Both the position numbers and the translations under genes were made by a program. Shown in pieces: positions 1,280 through 7,557 of a stretch of DNA of 64,000 bases (position 1 is the first letter of the stretch; each line of letters begins with the position of its first letter). This DNA is from an uncultured Chloroflexia bacterium (lineage in GTDB: Bacteria > Chloroflexota > Limnocylindria > QHBO01), in NCBI GenBank assembly GCA_963810925.1, contig CAWEPF010000008.1, positions 249,994-313,993 of the forward strand, read 5' to 3'. Below the pieces are notes generated by a model. That model did no database searches. It was not told the DNA's origin and saw only the letters and a list, made by a program, of their open reading frames with translations.

Positions 1280-1894
1280 ATGGGACCCGCGACGGCCGAC
1301 GGTGCGCTGGCCGCGGCGTCGGTCCGCGAGCTGTTCGAGTCCGCTGGGGCGCTGCGGACCGGGCACTTTCGGCTGAAGAGCGGGCGCCACTCGGATCGGT
1401 ATCTCGAGAAATTCGCCGTGCTCCAGTACCCAGCCGTCGCTTCGGAGCTGTGCCGTCGCCTTGCGCACGCGCTGGCCGACGAGCAGCCGGACGTGGTCGT
1501 CGGGCCGACCACCGGCGGCGTGCTGCTGGCGTTCGAAACCGCGCGGCATCTCGAGTCACGACTGGGCCGCCAGGTGCGGGGCATCTTCGCGGAAGCGGTG
1601 GACGGTGGACGGGCGCTGCGGCGCGGGTTCGCAATGGGTCCCGACGAGCGGGTGGTCATCGTTGACGACATCCTGACCACCGGCCAGTCGGTGCGCGAGA
1701 CGCTCGACGCGGTGCGCGCGGCGGGGGGCACGCCGCGCGCGGTGGCCGTCATCGTGGACCGCTCGACGGAGGCGCTGGACCTTGGGCTGCCGGTCCATGC
1801 GCTCGATCGAATCGAGATCGGTTCCTGGGCTGCCGACGCCTGCCCCCTGTGTACCGCTGACGTTCCCCTCGAGACCCCGGGGAGCAGCGCCTAG
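1280..1894 (+). CDS. pyrE: orotate phosphoribosyltransferase
   Basis: HFRLKSGRHS N-terminal signature and PRPP-binding loop VVIVDDILTTGQS. 204 aa. Confidence 0.85.
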   Translation: MGPATADGALAAASVRELFESAGALRTGHFRLKSGRHSDRYLEKFAVLQYPAVASELCRRLAHALADEQPDVVVGPTTGGVLLAFETARHLESRLGRQVRGIFAEAVDGGRALRRGFAMGPDERVVIVDDILTTGQSVRETLDAVRAAGGTPRAVAVIVDRSTEALDLGLPVHALDRIEIGSWAADACPLCTADVPLETPGSSA

Positions 1895-2772
1895 CCGATC
1901 ACCGGCTCCTGCCACGTGACCTCGGTCAGGCGCGCCGGGGGAAACTCTCCGTCGGCGGGGACGATGCCCGCCTCGGCCTCCACCGGGATCCCGATCGGGG
2001 CGACGAGGTAGCGCCCAGCCAGGCGGCGCGCATCCGGATCCAGGACGAACCCGGCCTTGGCCCGGTGGAAGGTGACCGTGATGTCGGCCGCGACCACCGG
2101 ATCGGACTGCTCCCCGCCGGTCAGACCAATGAGCGTGGGCGTGTCTACGGCCAGGATCCGGCACGGGCGTCCGGCGGCCGCGGCGTGGGTCCGGATGGCG
2201 TTCAGGAGGTCGACCGCGGTCGAGATCGGCTCGCGGAGCGGGCCCGAGGCACCACTGCCCAGGAGCGCATCCACCAGAAGCGAGGCCGGGGACAGCCGCG
2301 CGCGCAGGCTGGTGAGCAGGTCGGCACTCGGGGCGATGAACAGCTCCAGCGAGCCACCGGCGGCCATCGCCTGGAGCACGCCCCAGTTGTGGGCTGCCGC
2401 GTGACCGCTGATCCCACCTGCGTTCCCCACCAGGACGGCAATGACCCGCTGGCCCCCGGCCGCCAGCCGGCGCGCGACGACGAACCCGTCCCCGCCGTTG
2501 TTGCCCGTCCCGCACAGGACCACGCTCATCAGGCGCTCGGCCAGCGGCCCACCCGGTCCCACAACGGGCTCCGCGAGGCGGGCCAGCTCGGTGAAGGCCA
2601 CCTCGGCCACGGCGGCCCCGGCGCTCTCCATGAGGGCGTCCTCGGTCAGGCCCAGCGCCTTGGCCGCTTCGTCGATCTTGGCCATCTCGGCCGCACCGAT
2701 GAGCACCGAGCGCGTCCGCCCTTCGGGTCCCGGCGCGGCGCTCGTGGGCGAGGCCCCGCCCGGATCGGTCAT
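1891..2772 (-). CDS. NAD(P)H-hydrate epimerase (YjeF N-terminal domain family)
   Basis: CGTGNNGGDGFVVAR motif typical of the YjeF_N domain. The internal ATG at 2772 forms an ATGA overlap with the upstream stop. The longer track ORF has an R-rich N-terminus. Confidence 0.75.
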   Translation of the reverse strand: MTDPGGASPTSAAPGPEGRTRSVLIGAAEMAKIDEAAKALGLTEDALMESAGAAVAEVAFTELARLAEPVVGPGGPLAERLMSVVLCGTGNNGGDGFVVARRLAAGGQRVIAVLVGNAGGISGHAAAHNWGVLQAMAAGGSLELFIAPSADLLTSLRARLSPASLLVDALLGSGASGPLREPISTAVDLLNAIRTHAAAAGRPCRILAVDTPTLIGLTGGEQSDPVVAADITVTFHRAKAGFVLDPDARRLAGRYLVAPIGIPVEAEAGIVPADGEFPPARLTEVTWQEPVIG

Positions 2773-3242
2773 TCGAGCGTGTAGAGGTACTCGACGATGG
2801 TCGCGATGTCCTCGGTCGACAGCTGCCCGCCGGGGCCGCCGAAGACCGGCATCCCGCCGCGGTCCAGGCCCGCCACCTCCGGCCCGCTGCCATCGATCCA
2901 CAGGTTGGGCCAGTCGTCAGGGTGATCGGTGCCCAGCTGCTGGAGGTTGTCGCTCTTGGGGCCGGCCGAGATGCCATGCAGGCTCGGGCCCACCAGGCCG
3001 GTCAGGTCGTCGCCATGACACGACTGGCAGCCGGCATGCTCGATCAGGGTCATCGCGTCCGCGGTGCCGCCCCCACTCGGGTTGGGCTGACCGCTTGGCG
3101 GCGGACCAACCAGGTCGGGATTCGTTCCCTCCAGGTTGAAGGTCAGCGACACGACGCCCAGGATCACCACGGCCGCGCCCACGCCCACGATCCAGCGCGG
3201 GATGCGCTCGGTACCGGTCTCGACCGGCGGAGGCCCGGTCAT
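2769..3242 (-). CDS. membrane-anchored mono-heme class I cytochrome c
   Basis: N-terminal TM helix (WIVGVGAAVVILGVVSL), a single CQSCH heme motif and a distal Met in GGMPVF. It starts 4 nt after the stop of the CcoN-like gene. Confidence 0.75.
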   Translation of the reverse strand: MTGPPPVETGTERIPRWIVGVGAAVVILGVVSLTFNLEGTNPDLVGPPPSGQPNPSGGGTADAMTLIEHAGCQSCHGDDLTGLVGPSLHGISAGPKSDNLQQLGTDHPDDWPNLWIDGSGPEVAGLDRGGMPVFGGPGGQLSTEDIATIVEYLYTLE

Positions 3243-3246
3243 CGGT

Positions 3247-4716
3247 TCAATGGCTCGCCGGCGCGGCAGCCGGGGCCGTGCCTGCGACCGCGGTGTGGAC
3301 CGGACGCCCGTGCGCCGCCAGGAGGTAGGCCTCGACCGCATGCCCGGCGGCCGCCAGGCCGAGCAGGCCCAGCCCGGCCCACGCGATCAGGTGGATGGGC
3401 AGGAGGCTGGTCAGGATCTCGTCCGGGGCCGTGCCGTCGGCCACGAGGCCCACGTGGAACAGTCCCCCCGCGATGAGCGCTGCACCCATCACGGCCGCGC
3501 CGACGAGCGCCGACCAGGTGACCGCGTAGGCGACGAGGCCGCCCTGATGGGAGCGATGCAGCATCCGGGGCCACGCGTGCTCCCCCACTGCCATCAGCCC
3601 GATGCTGGCCGCCCCGCCCAGGGCGAACGCGACCACGCCGATGGGCCACTCGGTGTGGGCCACCGCGGCCTGAACCTCGCGCAGCGACCCGATCCCGGCC
3701 AGGACCACGCTGCCACCGAGGAAGACCAGGGAGGAAACGGCCATCGCCAGGGGGCCGGGCGATAGGACCAGCGCCCACCGACCACGGAGGGTCATGGCCA
3801 GGTTGGCCACCACCGCCAGGACGGGGAGCAGCAGCATCATGGTGGCCGCGTTGCCGGCGCTGACCAGCGCGTATGGGATGGAGGGGTGGACGGCCGCCCC
3901 GAAGATCGCGATCACGCCCAGCACCGCCCAGGTCCACAGGCCGAACCAGGCCAGCGCCCCGGAAGCCAGCGGCTGTCCGCTGAGCCGCGGGACAAGGTAG
4001 TGCAGGCCACCGATCGTCACGCCGATCGCGAACAGGAGGGTCCAGGCCCGGATCCACATCGCCTCGGCCAGCGCGTCGGTCGTGGGGTCGAGGTTGAGGA
4101 GGCTCACGACCGACGCCTCGATCACGAGGCCCAGCAGGGTCAGCATGCCCACGCCGAACCAGGCCAGACTGATGAACGCGTGCTCGGCACCAAAGACGCT
4201 CCGCCAGAACGAGAGGCTGGTCAGCAGCAGGCCCAGCACCAGGATGAGGTTCACGACGAACGGGAAGCCCGTGACGGTCCCCTCGTCCACCAACTGGGGG
4301 ATGTAGAGCAGTGCCAGGCCCGCCGCAAAGCCCACGTTCCAGATGATCATCCCCAGCACCGCGGTCCGCTGGCCGGTGATCGGCCGCCCGGTCAGGCGGG
4401 GAGTCGCGAAGAAGATGGCGCCCAGGGCCGCATTGGTGAGCCAGCCCCACGCGAAGGTGTGCCGGAAGCCGGCCGCCACCGTGTCAGCGGTGAACTCGAC
4501 CGACAGGCCGAACGGCAGCTCGATGATGAACGTGAAGCTGGACATCACCAGCTGGAGGGCGGCGAGGGTGCCGATGCCGGTGGCGGTCAGGAACCACAGC
4601 GCCCCGAACCCGAAGAAGCCCTTGGCGGCAGCGTCCGGACCGGACGGAAAGAGCGATCGGCTCGACTTCGGCGGCTTGTCGTAGGGACGCAGCTTCTTGA
4701 GGTTTCCGCTGGTCAT
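3247..4716 (-). CDS. CcoN/FixN-like heme-copper oxidase subunit I homologue lacking the binuclear-centre histidines
   Basis: 489 aa with about 12 TM segments. FRHTFAWGWLTNAALGAIFFATPRLT resembles the CcoN helix II motif LHTNAVIF..YYVxxRT. AHTEWPIGVVAFALGG resembles HYTDWTIGHVHSGALG, but the HVH is replaced by VVA. See findings. Confidence 0.6.
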   Translation of the reverse strand: MTSGNLKKLRPYDKPPKSSRSLFPSGPDAAAKGFFGFGALWFLTATGIGTLAALQLVMSSFTFIIELPFGLSVEFTADTVAAGFRHTFAWGWLTNAALGAIFFATPRLTGRPITGQRTAVLGMIIWNVGFAAGLALLYIPQLVDEGTVTGFPFVVNLILVLGLLLTSLSFWRSVFGAEHAFISLAWFGVGMLTLLGLVIEASVVSLLNLDPTTDALAEAMWIRAWTLLFAIGVTIGGLHYLVPRLSGQPLASGALAWFGLWTWAVLGVIAIFGAAVHPSIPYALVSAGNAATMMLLLPVLAVVANLAMTLRGRWALVLSPGPLAMAVSSLVFLGGSVVLAGIGSLREVQAAVAHTEWPIGVVAFALGGAASIGLMAVGEHAWPRMLHRSHQGGLVAYAVTWSALVGAAVMGAALIAGGLFHVGLVADGTAPDEILTSLLPIHLIAWAGLGLLGLAAAGHAVEAYLLAAHGRPVHTAVAGTAPAAAPASH

Positions 4717-4819
4717 CCGAGCGCGCGGGGCCTCCTGAATGGGAATCCCGTGTGAGTCGGTTCCGCACCGCGGGCCGCGCCCAGCGACCCGGCCGCATTG
4801 TAGCGGTCACAATCGCCGT

Positions 4820-5383
4820 ATGACCGATGGCGCATCGTCTCGCTCGATCGTGCGCCCGCTCCTCCGGGCGCGCCAGGTCCGTGAGTTCACGGACACTCCT
4901 CTGACCGATGCGGAGCTCGACGCGATCACCGACGTGGCCCGCTGGACGGGGAGCAGCCGCAACACCCAGCCATGGCGGTTCCTGACCATTCGCCATGCGG
5001 CGACCATCCGCCGCCTCGAGGCCGTAGGCCTCCCGCAGACCCGTGCCCTGAAGACGGCGACCGCGGCCGTGGCCATCGTCCTGCCGGACGATCCGCGGCG
5101 CGTCACCTCCCTCGCCTACGACGACGGTCGGGCGGCGGAGCGGATGCTGATCGCCGCCGGCATGCTGGGCGTGGCGGCCGGCATCGCGTGGATCCGCCAG
5201 GACGTCCTGCCCACGGTGCGCGAGATCCTCGAGCTCCCCGAAAGCGTGATGGTCCGGACCGTGATGGCCCTGGGGCATCCGACCGATGCCGCGCTGCAGC
5301 CCAAGTCGGCGCCCGGCCTGGCCCGGCTGCCACGGGAGGCATCGGTCTTTGCCGAGCGGCTTCCGGCCGACGCCCTGGAATAG
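4820..5383 (+). CDS. nitroreductase family protein
   Basis: RSxRxF-type N-terminus (RARQVREFTD) and SSRNTQPWRF motif. I chose the internal ATG at 4820. Confidence 0.75.
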   Translation: MTDGASSRSIVRPLLRARQVREFTDTPLTDAELDAITDVARWTGSSRNTQPWRFLTIRHAATIRRLEAVGLPQTRALKTATAAVAIVLPDDPRRVTSLAYDDGRAAERMLIAAGMLGVAAGIAWIRQDVLPTVREILELPESVMVRTVMALGHPTDAALQPKSAPGLARLPREASVFAERLPADALE

Positions 5384-5427: not shown

Positions 5428-5502
<75 letters not shown>

Positions 5503-5865: not shown

Positions 5866-6005
5866 CGGTTTTCTCCTTCATGCGGATGAGACCAGTCTAG
5901 GCGCGTCTGGAAATCGTGCCTTTCGGCACTGGTTGGGTACCTGCTCCTGAGCCGAGTCTTCCGGTCAAACGGGCCTCGAGGCCCGCACGTCCGTTGGAGA
6001 AGGTG

Positions 6006-7199
6006 ATGACGTCAAGCGATCCGGTCACGGCATCGGAGGCCAAGACGGCTCCCAGAGGTCTGTTGGGATCGCTCTCAGACCAGTTCGGCTTCCACCAGAT
6101 GATCAGCGACTACCTGATCCCCATCGAGTCGAACAACTTCTGGTACCTGCTCGGGGGGGTGCTGGGCATCGCGCTCGCGGTTGAGATCGGCACGGGCGTT
6201 CTCCTGTCGCTGGTCTACGTCCCGGATGCCGGGCAGGCGTTTGGCATTACCCAACATCTCATCACCACCGGCGGTTGGTCCATCGTCCTCAACTTCCACT
6301 TCTACAACTCGTTCGTGATCTTCGGGCTCGTGATGATCCACATGGTGCGGGTCTTCATCACGGGCAGCTATCGGCGTGGCAAGACGGGCCTGTGGCTGAT
6401 CGGCGTCGGTCTGGCCGCCGTCACCTTCGTCATCTCGCTCACCGGCGAGGCGCTTCATTGGGACGAGGTTGGCTTTGGCGTTCCCTGGAATGTCTCCGAG
6501 GTACTCGACGCCGTGGGTCTCGCCGCGTTCTTCGGGTACACGACCGACGCGCTGCTGGCCATCCCGACCGCCACCGAGAAGCTGACGCAGATCTACGTCC
6601 TCCACATCTCGATCGTTCCGATCGCGCTCGGTGTCCTCGTCGGCTGGCATTACCTGCTGATTCGGTTCAAGGGCATCTCCACCCCATTCTGGCTTCGGGC
6701 GAGTGGCCGGAAGGCCGGCTTTCTCGAGCACGTCCGCGGCTGGATCATTCTCAGCGCGGTCATCCTCGGCGTTGTCCTCCTCCTGGCGATCTTCGTTCCC
6801 CGCGAGGCCGGAACGGCGCCCCAGCTTCTTCCGTCCTCGCCGTTCTATGGCGTGGATGACGATCCCGGCGGACTTGGATTCAAGCCGACCTTCCCGATCA
6901 GCTGGACGCGCGGCATGAATATCGTCGCTGCCAACCTGGGGATCGATCCGGACATCTGGGGAGCGATGCTCGGGATGGGCATCATGCTCCTCGTCCTCGT
7001 CGTCGTTCCGTTCGTCGACCGAGGGGACCGGGAGCCGGACAGCTGGGCTGCCGCCTTCAACTGGCGCAAGCGGGGTTGGGCCTTCGTGGCGATGGGCGCC
7101 TTCTGGGTCGTGATGATCGGTGGGACTCATCGTCAACCAGATCACCGCCGCCGGCTGATCCAGGCAATCGAGCGGCCGAGGACAGGAGTGCACCGATAG
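6006..7199 (+). CDS. cytochrome b (fused b6 + subunit IV-like, stand-alone)
   Basis: H-x13-H in NFHFYNSFVIFGLVMIH and H-x14-H in LHISIVPIALGVLVGWH (bis-heme ligands). ATG at 6006 follows GGAGAAGG. The last ~25 aa are R-rich, so the 3' end is uncertain. Confidence 0.75.
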   Translation: MTSSDPVTASEAKTAPRGLLGSLSDQFGFHQMISDYLIPIESNNFWYLLGGVLGIALAVEIGTGVLLSLVYVPDAGQAFGITQHLITTGGWSIVLNFHFYNSFVIFGLVMIHMVRVFITGSYRRGKTGLWLIGVGLAAVTFVISLTGEALHWDEVGFGVPWNVSEVLDAVGLAAFFGYTTDALLAIPTATEKLTQIYVLHISIVPIALGVLVGWHYLLIRFKGISTPFWLRASGRKAGFLEHVRGWIILSAVILGVVLLLAIFVPREAGTAPQLLPSSPFYGVDDDPGGLGFKPTFPISWTRGMNIVAANLGIDPDIWGAMLGMGIMLLVLVVVPFVDRGDREPDSWAAAFNWRKRGWAFVAMGAFWVVMIGGTHRQPDHRRRLIQAIERPRTGVHR

Positions 7200-7329
7200 C
7201 CGCGCAACTGCACAGCCTGCTGGCGTTCGGCGCCGCGATGGTCGTGGCCGTCGCCGGCCTCGAGGCTACCTGTGGCGCGCTATCCGCGACGTCGCTCCGG
7301 GTACGGCGGCCTCGTGGCTCGAGGGCCTG

Positions 7330-7557
7330 GTGCTCCTGATCGTGGGCCTGAGCGCTGCGGCCGGCCTGGGCATGCTGGTCGGTGGAGCACGCCCCGCAGA
7401 GTTGCTCCATTTCGTCTACGCGGTGCTCGCCTTCGGCGCGCTGCCCGTCGCGGCATCCGTGTCCGCAACGTGGCAGCCGCGCCGTCGTGCCGCCGCGACG
7501 GTGGTCGCTTCGCTGATCGCGCTGGTCGTGATCATCCGCCTCTTCGCGACCGGCTAG
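7330..7557 (+). CDS. small hydrophobic membrane protein, 5' end unresolved
   Basis: Two TM-like segments. Another TM-like stretch (IAAQLHSLLAFGAAMVVAVAGLEA) lies just upstream in a different frame, which suggests a frame break near 7262. Confidence 0.35.
   Translation: MLLIVGLSAAAGLGMLVGGARPAELLHFVYAVLAFGALPVAASVSATWQPRRRAAATVVASLIALVVIIRLFATG

What the first reader, a model, noticed from the sequence alone, without database searches (positions are those of the whole stretch)
2769..4716. CcoN/FixN-like oxidase subunit that has lost every binuclear-centre ligand, paired with a membrane-anchored cytochrome c
The 489-aa, roughly 12-TM protein aligns by eye with cbb3 CcoN landmarks, but the catalytic histidines are gone.
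- Helix II is retained: RHT (His86) in FRHTFAWGWLTNAALGAIFFATPRLT, compared with LHTNAV...YYV.QRT.
- The CuB/Tyr-crosslink motif WWYGHNAVGF reads AMWIRAWTLLF (Arg223).
- The GPHH pair reads GAAVH.
- HYTDWTIGHVHSGALG reads AHTEWPIGVVAFALGG, so both the high-spin heme ligand and the second low-spin heme ligand are replaced by Val/Ala while the flanking residues are conserved.

The gene is intact, with no frame break, and lies 4 nt upstream of a mono-heme cytochrome c gene. This looks like a repurposed, non-catalytic heme-copper oxidase scaffold (channel, sensor or assembly partner) rather than an oxidase.
Basis: partly seen in the sequence, partly recalled or inferred. Interest (0 to 1): 0.7.

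Follow-up and report, generated by a model that had tools for sequence, protein, structure and literature searches.

The report
Cofactor-free cbb3 oxidase subunit relative
This gene encodes a well-conserved relative of the catalytic subunit of cbb3-type respiratory oxidases that has lost all six metal- and heme-binding histidines, is always paired with a membrane-anchored cytochrome c, and so cannot be the oxygen-reducing enzyme that databases call it.

Summary
The 489-aa ORF (3247-4716, minus strand) belongs to Pfam COX1. Its predicted fold matches cbb3 CcoN over its full length (TM 0.82-0.88).

Profile-profile alignment shows that none of the six canonical His ligands is present. The cross-link Tyr and the K-channel residues are also gone.

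The gene is not decaying. dN/dS is 0.11, and 79 genome loci, mostly labelled Limnocylindria or Chloroflexota, carry it. In every locus that extends far enough, the order is HCO-like, TM-anchored monoheme cytochrome c, yjeF_N. The cytochrome keeps its CxxCH motif in 83 of 84 loci.

More distant ligand-free relatives are followed by, or fused to, intact FixO heme-c or blue-copper domains. Among 147 diverse relatives, 69 have 0/6 ligands.

Best reading: a non-catalytic CcoN-derived membrane scaffold for outward-facing one-electron carriers. The physiological role is inferred, not shown.

It is a new variant of a known kind. The closest precedent found is the ligand-less COX1-like protein reported in Acetobacter. 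Databases annotate these proteins as cbb3 oxidase subunit I, which can mislead metabolic inference. Interest 0.68.

The parts
3247..4716 (-). Ligand-free CcoN-like (C-family heme-copper oxidase subunit I fold) membrane protein, 489 aa, 12 predicted TM helices
   Evidence: Pfam COX1 E=7e-15. AF2 pLDDT 87.6. Foldseek best match CcoN, TM 0.82-0.88. hhalign against ligand-bearing relatives, probability 100.
4465..4467 (-). Phe84 codon, at the position of the helix-II heme b ligand (P. stutzeri His60)
   Evidence: hhalign and hmmalign register. Phe in 128/128 family members. Coordinate checked.
4459..4461 (-). It aligns with Asn62 of the canonical H-x-N motif.
   Evidence: Only 50/128 family members have His here; 61 have Asn.
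4048..4050 (-). Arg223 codon, replacing CuB ligand His207. It is the only conserved charged residue in mid-membrane.
   Evidence: Arg in 122/128 members.
3916..3918 (-). Gly267 codon, at the position of the cross-linked Tyr251
   Evidence: A, G or S in 125/128 members.
3895..3900 (-). Gly273-Ala274 codons, replacing CuB ligands His257/His258
3628..3636 (-). Val361-Val362-Ala363 codons, replacing the helix-X H-x-H motif (heme b3 His345 and heme b His347)
4669..4704 (-). Family-specific N-terminal cytoplasmic motif NLKKLRPYDKPP (R10, P11, Y12 and P15 are at least 95% conserved). Canonical CcoN relatives have no counterpart.
   Evidence: gap in at least 93% of 28 ligand-bearing relatives. Low pLDDT of 46-54.
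2769..3242 (-). Membrane-anchored monoheme class I cytochrome c, 157 aa: TM helix, a Pro/Gly/Ser-rich linker, then the heme domain
   Evidence: Pfam Cytochrome_CBB3 and Cytochrom_C. Resembles Bacillus-type c550/c551 models. Follows the HCO-like gene in every locus that extends past that gene.
3138..3200 (-). TM anchor of the cytochrome c (PRWIVGVGAAVVILGVVSLTF)
   Evidence: Sequence read directly.
3015..3029 (-). CQSCH heme c attachment motif
   Evidence: CxxCH is present in 83/84 orthologous loci, and R.GMP.F (the Met ligand) is at least 90% conserved.
1891..2772 (-). yjeF_N (NAD(P)HX epimerase domain) gene, 293 aa. Its ATG overlaps the cytochrome c stop codon (ATGA). It is probably co-transcribed; any functional link is unknown.
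   Evidence: Pfam YjeF_N E=5.8e-28. Junction read. Same gene order in every Limnocylindria-type locus that extends far enough.

Best explanation
The gene encodes a cofactor-free pseudo-enzyme derived from the catalytic subunit (CcoN) of a C-family (cbb3-type) heme-copper oxidase.

**Shown**
- The 12-helix HCO fold is kept.
- All six His ligands (heme b x2, heme b3, CuB x3), the cross-linked Tyr and the K-pathway residues are replaced. The replacements are Phe, Arg, Gly/Ala, Val/Ala and aliphatic residues.
- The protein is under strong purifying selection.
- It sits in a tightly coupled gene order with a membrane-anchored, heme-competent monoheme cytochrome c.

**Inferred**
- The two proteins form a membrane complex, with the cytochrome's TM helix packing against the scaffold as CcoO and CcoP helices pack on CcoN.
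- The only redox centre of the complex is the outward-facing heme c, held on a flexible Pro/Gly/Ser tether.
- The complex works as a docking or positioning module for one-electron transfer between a quinol:cytochrome c oxidoreductase and a real terminal oxidase or reductase. Chloroflexota are reported to be single-membrane cells (my knowledge, not tested), which would require such carriers to be membrane-anchored.
- Arg223, possibly paired with Glu/Asp356, and Phe84 fill the space left by CuB and the hemes.

The protein does not reduce O2 or NO, and it does not conduct protons by the cbb3 pathway.
For: **Fold and family:**

**Loss of catalytic residues:** 0/6 ligands, no Tyr cross-link and no K-channel. 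Several family members contain only 2-5 histidines in total.

**Selection:** dN/dS of 0.056/0.521 against the 90%-identical orthologue. There are 79 distinct genome loci at 35-90% identity.

**Operon and partner**
- The order HCO-like, cytochrome c, yjeF_N holds in every locus that extends far enough.
- The spacers are 4 nt and -4 nt.
- The cytochrome keeps CxxCH in 83/84 loci, plus the Met motif.

**Physical association (Rosetta-stone evidence)**
- Ligand-free relatives are fused to FixO heme-c domains (P0093, P0106, P0163, P0183, P0210) or to blue-copper cupredoxin domains (P0101, P0209), with CxxCH or T1Cu ligands intact.
- Other relatives are followed by FixO and cytochrome c genes in ccoNOP order (L007, L009, L010, L090, L091).

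**Family-specific conservation:** it is concentrated at F84, R223, L333 and the N-terminal motif. The remaining conserved positions are structural residues shared with ligand-bearing relatives.
Against: - No direct evidence that the two proteins bind each other. A multimer prediction could not be run.
- A cytochrome that already has its own TM helix does not obviously need a 12-TM anchor, so the scaffold probably does something more than anchoring.
- No partner complex is identified. No oxidase, FixO or ResB/CcsA gene lies in the 64-kb window.
- The window's subclade has gained several conserved histidines (H86, H239, H380, H459, H469, H489). Their role is unexplained, and they might bind a metal.
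- No expression or proteomic data are available.
Confidence: 0.55

Rival explanations
1. Cofactor-free quinol-binding membrane subunit. The HCO scaffold supplies a quinol oxidation site near the outer face and passes electrons directly to the heme c (or FixO/cupredoxin) partner. This would be analogous to the cofactor-less NrfD-type subunits of alternative complex III and Psr/Nrf-type complexes.
For: - It would explain why a large polytopic protein is kept with intact outward-facing one-electron centres.
- Quinol sites have evolved repeatedly in the HCO superfamily (gNOR and qNOR are discussed in PMC11214002).
- Conserved polar residues lie in the membrane (N95, N127, R223, E/D356).
Against: - No recognisable quinol-binding motif was found.
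- The distance from any such site to the tethered heme is unknown.
- The flexible linker of the window's cytochrome argues for a mobile carrier rather than a fixed acceptor.
- The idea is entirely inferential.
Confidence: 0.1
2. Biogenesis or stabilising factor. The dead subunit I chaperones or stabilises another membrane protein, such as the cytochrome c maturation machinery, a heme-handling enzyme or a real oxidase. A similar role was proposed for the ligand-less COX1-like protein next to CtaB in Acetobacter.
For: - Precedent described in PMC10715153.
- In two distant ligand-free subfamilies, the gene directly follows ResB and CcsA, the system II cytochrome c maturation genes (L009, L092).
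- In L092 it precedes a COX2-cytochrome c gene.
Against: - In the window and in 79 Limnocylindria-type loci, phmmer scans found no FixO, and no ResB, CcsA or COX genes were found anywhere in the 64-kb window.
- Gene calls available for a handful of the loci show no maturation or oxidase genes nearby.
- The constant partner is a mature electron carrier, not an assembly enzyme.
Confidence: 0.12
3. Ion or proton channel, transporter or sensor built on the HCO scaffold, with the conserved cytoplasmic N-terminal motif used for signalling or gating.
For: - A conserved family-specific cytoplasmic motif, KKLRPYDxPP.
- A subclade-specific set of histidines that lie towards the cytoplasmic ends of TM6, TM10 and TM12 and in cytoplasmic segments.
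- A buried Arg223 with an acidic residue at position 356.
Against: - The canonical K-pathway residues are replaced by hydrophobic or small ones.
- No signalling domain or cognate regulator gene is nearby.
- This does not explain the constant link to c-type cytochromes and cupredoxins.
Confidence: 0.1
4. Still a catalytic O2 or NO reductase that binds heme or metal through non-canonical ligands.
For: - The automatic name "cbb3-type cytochrome c oxidase subunit I".
- The window's subclade has 9-15 histidines.
Against: - 0/6 ligand positions are occupied.
- No His, Cys or Met is conserved across the family in the membrane core.
- Sister subclades have only 2-5 histidines in total.
- The cross-link Tyr and the proton pathway are absent.
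- The ligands are stated to be conserved in all other HCO families, with one His-to-Asp change in gNOR (PMC11214002).
Confidence: 0.03
5. Decaying pseudogene or relic with no function.
For: Loss of all catalytic residues.
Against: - dN/dS is 0.11.
- The reading frame is intact and full length in dozens of species-level genomes at 35-90% identity.
- About 60 positions are conserved at 93% or more.
Confidence: 0.01

Closest known systems
CcoN, catalytic subunit I of cbb3-type (C-family) cytochrome c oxidase (e.g. P. stutzeri 3MK7 chain A; TIGR00780)
   Same: - 12-TM fold, TM-score 0.82-0.88.
- Shared structural motifs: W41, W126/N127, Y240-x2-P-R/K, T355-x-W357, P383-R384.
- The gene is followed by a c-type cytochrome gene.
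- More distant ligand-free relatives keep the ccoN-ccoO-ccoP gene order.
   Different: - 0/6 His ligands, no cross-link Tyr and no K-channel residues.
- 36.9 bits against the TIGR00780 cut-off of 583.
- No FixO/CcoO gene in the window locus.
- The partner is a monoheme cytochrome rather than the diheme CcoP.
- It carries an extra conserved N-terminal motif.
"Deranged" COX1-like protein of Acetobacter spp., which lacks all metal-binding residues and is encoded next to ctaB (described in PMC10715153)
   Same: It is a subunit I homologue of a heme-copper oxidase that has lost every cofactor ligand yet is retained in the genome. A structural or stabilising role was proposed for it.
   Different: - Per PMC10715153, that protein is alphaproteobacterial and linked to heme O synthase. 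I take it to be A-family from the name COX1; no sequence was available to test this.
- The present protein is C-family-like and is linked to c-type cytochromes or cupredoxins.
- It forms a large, diversified clade in Limnocylindria and beyond.
Nitric oxide reductase subunits NorB and the newer NOR families (eNOR, bNOR, sNOR, gNOR, nNOR)
   Same: They are members of the HCO superfamily that lack the cross-link Tyr and do not reduce O2. cNOR pairs with a monoheme cytochrome c subunit. Foldseek gives TM 0.76 to 4xyd_A and 3o0r_B.
   Different: All NOR families keep the heme ligands and the FeB/CuB histidines; gNOR has one His-to-Asp change (PMC11214002). This protein keeps none.
Membrane-anchored small cytochromes c of Gram-positive bacteria (Bacillus CccA c550) and cytochrome cy of Rhodobacter (comparison for the partner protein)
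   Same: An N-terminal TM anchor, a flexible linker and a single class I heme c domain. The best NCBIfam hits are the c550 and c551 models.
   Different: - The scores are far below the family cut-offs (29 bits against 118-125).
- Those cytochromes are not encoded behind a dead CcoN gene, as far as I know (from my own knowledge, not tested).

Membership tests
Pfam COX1 (PF00115), heme-copper oxidase subunit I superfamily | Score above the Pfam gathering threshold over most of the profile | tested here: met
   55.3 bits against 34.8; profile positions 3-405 of 436.
Heme-copper oxidase subunit I fold | 12-TM helix bundle superposable on solved subunit I structures | tested here: met
   AF2 pLDDT 87.6 and pTM 0.88. 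Foldseek TM 0.82-0.88 to CcoN, 0.76 to NorB and about 0.7 to A/B-family subunit I.
C-family oxidase CcoN (TIGR00780 equivalog) | Score above the NCBIfam trusted cut-off | tested here: not met
   36.9 bits against 583.15.
C-family oxidase CcoN | Two axial His ligands for the low-spin heme b (helix II His60 and helix X His347, P. stutzeri numbering) | tested here: not met
   F84 and A363 occupy these columns. F84 is invariant in 128 family members.
C-family oxidase CcoN | Proximal His ligand for the high-spin heme b3 (His345) | tested here: not met
   V361.
C-family oxidase CcoN | Three His ligands of CuB (His207, His257, His258) | tested here: not met
   R223, G273 and A274.
C-family oxidase CcoN | Cross-linked active-site Tyr on helix VII (Tyr251) | tested here: not met
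   G267; A, G or S in 125/128 family members.
C-family oxidase CcoN | K-pathway analogue residues (T215, Y223, S240, H243, Y317, E323). The list is recalled from the 3MK7 literature; residue identities were checked against the 3mk7_A sequence. | tested here: not met
   I231, H239, A256, G259, L333 and L339. Only the Y223 position stays polar or aromatic.
cbb3 oxidase operon (ccoNOQP) | An adjacent ccoO (FixO, PF02433) gene for the monoheme subunit | tested here: not met
   No FixO hit in the window or in the Limnocylindria-type loci L011-L089. FixO is present in the more distant ligand-free relatives L007, L009, L010, L090 and L091.
cbb3 oxidase operon (ccoNOQP) | An adjacent membrane-anchored c-type cytochrome (CcoP, diheme) | tested here: inconclusive
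   A TM-anchored cytochrome c is adjacent, but it is monoheme and generic class I.
Nitric oxide reductases of the HCO superfamily (cNOR, qNOR, eNOR, etc.) | Heme ligands plus three His (with or without Glu) at the FeB/CuB site | tested here: not met
   Same columns as above, all non-His. Conservation of these ligands in the NOR families is stated in PMC11214002.
Acetobacter-type ligand-less COX1-like protein | Subunit I homologue without metal ligands, encoded in a ctaB cluster | not testable with these tools
   No sequence of that protein was available. No heme O synthase gene is evident among the ORFs and gene calls near the window gene and its closest orthologues. The resemblance is conceptual only.

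The most novel reading that the evidence does not exclude
The ligand-free CcoN-like proteins may be the membrane arm of a previously unrecognised class of respiratory complex. This includes the Limnocylindria family and the much larger radiation seen in Verrucomicrobiota-labelled and other metagenomic lineages. In this reading, the HCO scaffold has been re-used without cofactors, for example as a quinol-binding or ion-coupling module. It would feed or gate an outward-facing heme c, FixO or blue-copper centre. This would parallel the cofactor-less NrfD-type subunits of alternative complex III.
Probability: 0.1. Interest if true: 0.9.

Novelty: new variant of a known kind. Interest (0 to 1): 0.68.

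Why it matters
**Annotation and metabolic inference.** Sources name these proteins "cbb3-type cytochrome c oxidase subunit I". Genome-based metabolic reconstructions of Limnocylindria, Verrucomicrobiota and others may therefore wrongly credit them with a high-affinity oxidase and a microaerobic lifestyle. A six-column histidine check would correct this.

**Assumed invariance of the ligands.** The invariance of the six histidines is treated as a defining property of the heme-copper superfamily (PMC11214002). A large clade kept under purifying selection with 0/6 ligands shows that the scaffold has a second, non-catalytic use.

**A testable hypothesis.** The constant association with intact heme c or blue-copper modules, including natural fusions, suggests an uncharacterised electron-transfer module. 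That can be tested directly.

**A natural series of active-site loss.** In one subfamily, relatives with 6/6 and 0/6 ligands each share about 50% identity with the same ligand-free protein. They could be used to study how a metalloenzyme core is refilled, for example by Arg in place of the CuB ligand and Phe in place of the heme ligand.

Tried and rejected
- **phmmer against PDB for helix II.** It did not align helix II. Its first domain matched the internal pseudo-repeat (query 178-272 to target 16-111). I therefore settled the helix-II register with hmmalign and hhalign.
- **Literature searches.** I searched for ligand-less CcoN or HCO homologues. I found no description of this family, only the Acetobacter COX1-like precedent. 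A 2026 Ferrigenium preprint that kept ranking high was irrelevant. The library lacks most subscription journals, so absence is not proof of novelty.
- **Search for respiratory genes in the 64-kb window.** I used phmmer to look for a real oxidase, FixO, ResB/CcsA or cupredoxin. None was found.
- **Pseudogene hypothesis.** Rejected by dN/dS and conservation.
- **Unrelated transporter family.** Rejected by fold and profile matches.
- **Cupredoxin lipoprotein upstream in relatives L001 and L002.** I considered it a possible partner. The window has no clear counterpart, so I did not pursue it.
- **Complex prediction for the scaffold-cytochrome pair.** Not possible. Structure prediction accepts only single window or database sequences, and model coordinates are not exposed. 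Pocket filling and interface conservation could therefore not be measured.
- **NJ tree of 147 relatives.** I used it only descriptively. It is not robust enough to count independent losses.


Full report
**What is at the coordinates**

On the minus strand there is an intact 489-codon ORF (3247-4716). Four bases after its stop codon (…CAT TGA ACCG ATG…) a 157-codon ORF follows (2769-3242). The stop codon of that second ORF overlaps the ATG of a yjeF_N gene (ATGA, start at 2772).

- The 489-aa product matches Pfam COX1 above threshold (E=7e-15, 55.3 bits against 34.8, nearly the whole profile).
- It reaches only 36.9 bits against the ccoN equivalog cut-off of 583.
- The 157-aa product has an N-terminal TM helix, a Pro/Gly/Ser-rich linker, one CQSCH motif and a GGMPVF Met-ligand motif. 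It matches class I cytochrome c models.

**Fold**

An AlphaFold2 model built on a 24-sequence family alignment is confident (mean pLDDT 87.6, pTM 0.88) and has 12 long helices. Foldseek against the PDB ranks the matches as follows:

- cbb3 CcoN chains first (8smr_E, 3mk7_A/D/G, 9g6b_A, 6xkw_n): E about 1e-15, TM 0.80-0.88, about 480 aligned columns.
- NorB next, at TM 0.76.
- A- and B-family subunit I at about 0.7.

The protein is therefore a C-family-type HCO subunit I by fold, not an unrelated transporter.

**The ligand columns**

I used three alignments:

- phmmer against solved CcoN sequences.
- hmmalign of P. stutzeri CcoN segments and 28 ligand-bearing relatives to the family HMM.
- hhalign of the family profile against a profile of 15 ligand-bearing C-family relatives (probability 100, E=8e-69, 453 columns).

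They give these equivalences (P. stutzeri numbering):

| Canonical residue | Role | Window residue |
|---|---|---|
| His207 | CuB ligand | Arg223 |
| His257/His258 | CuB ligands | Gly273/Ala274 |
| His345 | heme b3 ligand | Val361 |
| His347 | heme b ligand | Ala363 |
| Tyr251 | cross-linked Tyr | Gly267 |

The phmmer alignment places a gap at His347; the other two place Ala363 there.

The helix-II claim was not right. In the gap-free alignment anchored by the conserved Arg at the cytoplasmic end of the helix (R107 to R83), the heme b ligand His60 falls on Phe84. That residue is Phe in 128 of 128 family members. His86 falls on the Asn of the canonical H-x-N motif and is Asn in 61 of 128 members. 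So none of the six ligands survives.

The K-pathway residues T215, S240, H243, Y317 and E323 are I, A, G, L and L. Some family members contain only two histidines in the entire protein.

**Not a relic**

- Against the 90%-identical orthologue, dN=0.056 and dS=0.521, a ratio of 0.11.
- A scan of one genome per species (185,579 species) returned 79 distinct loci at 35-90% identity. Most are labelled Limnocylindria or Chloroflexota. A few carry other labels and are probably mis-binned.
- Every locus that extends far enough has the same order: HCO-like, cytochrome c, yjeF_N.
- The cytochrome keeps CxxCH in 83 of 84 loci, plus a conserved R.GMP.F motif.
- About 60 positions of the scaffold are at least 93% conserved. 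Most are structural residues shared with ligand-bearing relatives.
- The family-specific conserved positions are Phe84, Arg223, Leu333 (at the K-channel Tyr317 position) and an N-terminal cytoplasmic motif, K-K-L-R-P-Y-D-x-P-P, which has no counterpart in canonical proteins.
- Arg223 is the only conserved charged residue in mid-membrane. An acidic residue at position 356, at the outer end of helix X, is 89% conserved and may pair with it (this is inference).

**Wider context**

A profile search of 1.84 billion cluster representatives found 2,392 proteins at E≤1e-3 and 437 at E≤1e-30. Of the 147 near-full-length proteins among the top 150, 27 have all six histidines and 69 have none. The rest have one to five. 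The profile was built from ligand-free sequences, so these proportions are biased. The diversity itself is real.

Gene contexts of distant ligand-free members keep the cbb3 operon logic:

- L007: N-like, FixO-cupredoxin fusion, cytochrome c, yjeF_N.
- L009: ResB, CcsA, N-like, FixO.
- L010 and L091: N-like, FixO, cytochrome c.
- L090: N-like, FixO, next to a complex I operon.
- L092: ResB, CcsA, N-like-cupredoxin fusion, COX2-cytochrome c.

Natural fusions of ligand-free N-like domains to FixO or to plastocyanin/azurin-type domains occur repeatedly. In every case checked, the heme c motif or the type-1 copper ligands are intact.

A second ligand-free subfamily, queried with P0092, has more than 1,285 clusters. 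The few organism-labelled hits are Verrucomicrobia/Verrucomicrobiae, plus one Methylomirabilota. Among the 118 listed hits plus one canonical control, 91 have no ligand and 10 hits have all six, all at about 50% identity to the ligand-free query. Ligand loss therefore happened among close relatives of presumably active enzymes.

**Interpretation**

What is shown:

- A CcoN-fold protein without any cofactor ligand, Tyr cross-link or canonical proton pathway.
- It is kept under purifying selection.
- It is genetically coupled to a heme-competent, tethered cytochrome c.
- It belongs to a large radiation in which the membrane module is dead and the outward-facing redox modules are alive.

What I infer, at about 0.55 confidence: the protein is a structural membrane partner for these one-electron carriers. 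It would form a complex through TM-helix packing as in cbb3, and position the carrier between a quinol:cytochrome c reductase and a true terminal enzyme. Chloroflexota are reported to be single-membrane cells (my knowledge, not tested), which would require anchored carriers.

Why a 12-TM scaffold is needed remains unexplained. This keeps several rivals open:

- A cofactor-less quinol site, as in NrfD-type subunits of alternative complex III (0.10).
- A biogenesis or stabilising role, as proposed for the Acetobacter COX1-like protein, supported weakly by the ResB/CcsA neighbours in two distant subfamilies (0.12).
- A channel or sensor role using the N-terminal motif (0.10).

Residual catalysis (0.03) and pseudogene status (0.01) are effectively excluded.

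**Comparison with the known**

The protein is a member of the HCO superfamily by Pfam score and by fold. It fails every catalytic membership criterion of CcoN and of the NOR families.

Murali et al. 2024 (PMC11214002) state that the active-site histidines are conserved in all other HCO families, with one His-to-Asp change in gNOR.

The nearest precedent I found is a remark in PMC10715153. [quoted passage not shown] I take that protein to be A-family from its name. It belongs to another phylum and has a different gene context.

NCBIfam has no dedicated model for this family, and sources name the proteins cbb3 oxidase subunit I. I therefore rate the finding a new variant of a known kind. The caveat is that the searchable literature excludes most subscription journals.

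**Limits**

- No coordinates were available for pocket analysis.
- No multimer prediction was possible.
- The rest of the genome could not be inspected for real oxidases.
- No expression data were available.
- The NJ tree is descriptive only.

Noticed in passing
window 5916-7557 (+): There is an intact cytochrome b gene (427 aa, Pfam Cytochrome_B plus Cytochrom_B_N_2, His pairs at 128/142 and 230/245) followed by a 75-aa membrane ORF. They form an insertion of about 1.7 kb between the ytfJ-like and saccharopine dehydrogenase genes. Neither gene was detected in any related locus held (within about 8 kb of the HCO-like gene where the contig extends that far), including the 90%-identical L011. 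No Rieske gene is adjacent.
   Followed up: partly
window 1891-2772 (-); loci L003-L089: The yjeF_N (NAD(P)HX epimerase domain) gene is translationally coupled to the cytochrome c gene by an ATGA overlap. It follows the cytochrome c gene in every Limnocylindria-type locus that extends far enough, even at 35% scaffold identity. I found no functional rationale linking metabolite repair to this module.
   Followed up: partly
window 4669-4704 (-), residues 5-16 of the scaffold: The cytoplasmic N-terminal motif NLKKLRPYDKPP is nearly invariant across the family (R10, P11, Y12, P15). It is absent from ligand-bearing relatives and is modelled with low confidence. It could be an interaction peptide.
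   Followed up: no
window 3247-4716 (-): residues H86, H239, H277, H380, H387, H390, H421, H442, H459, H469, H489: The window's subclade has 9-15 histidines, whereas sister subclades have 2-5. Several of these histidines are conserved within the subclade. By the predicted helix boundaries, most lie towards the cytoplasmic ends of TM6, TM10 and TM12 or in cytoplasmic segments. A secondary metal site cannot be excluded.
   Followed up: partly
L007 1603-2481: A FixO-type monoheme cytochrome c is fused to a type-1 blue-copper cupredoxin domain (His in VPHNVSIY; Cys, His and Met in CDVHPLM). It is encoded between a ligand-free CcoN-like gene and the cytochrome c orthologue. P0101 and P0209 instead fuse the cupredoxin directly to the dead scaffold.
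   Followed up: partly
L009 138-2619; L092 1471-4795: In two distant ligand-free subfamilies, the scaffold gene directly follows the system II cytochrome c maturation genes ResB and CcsA. L092 also has a thioredoxin-like gene there, and in L092 the scaffold gene precedes a COX2-cytochrome c gene.
   Followed up: no
proteins P0219-P0336 (hits to P0092): In a subfamily with a few Verrucomicrobia-labelled members, proteins with 6/6 histidine ligands and proteins with 0/6 each share about 50% identity with the ligand-free query P0092. This points to ligand loss among close relatives of presumably active enzymes.
   Followed up: partly
L037-L040, L045, L085 (labelled Steroidobacteraceae), L027 (Dormiibacterota), L066 (Angelobacter): Limnocylindria-type scaffold, cytochrome c and yjeF_N loci sit in MAGs assigned to unrelated phyla. 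The likeliest cause is binning contamination rather than horizontal transfer. I did not check this.
   Followed up: no
proteins P0056, P0057; loci L021, L047, L086: Some family entries look frameshifted or fragmented. Examples are scrambled stretches in the alignment and split hits within one locus. These could be assembly errors or occasional true pseudogenes.
   Followed up: no
window 5428-5502 (-): A tRNA-Met (CAT) gene lies between the nitroreductase and ytfJ-like genes.
   Followed up: no
window 4739-5383 (+): The divergent nitroreductase ORF is 214 aa from the first ATG, but orthologues are called at 184 aa (L001, L002). The true start is probably about 90 nt downstream, which leaves an intergenic promoter region of about 110 bp shared with the scaffold operon.
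   Followed up: no
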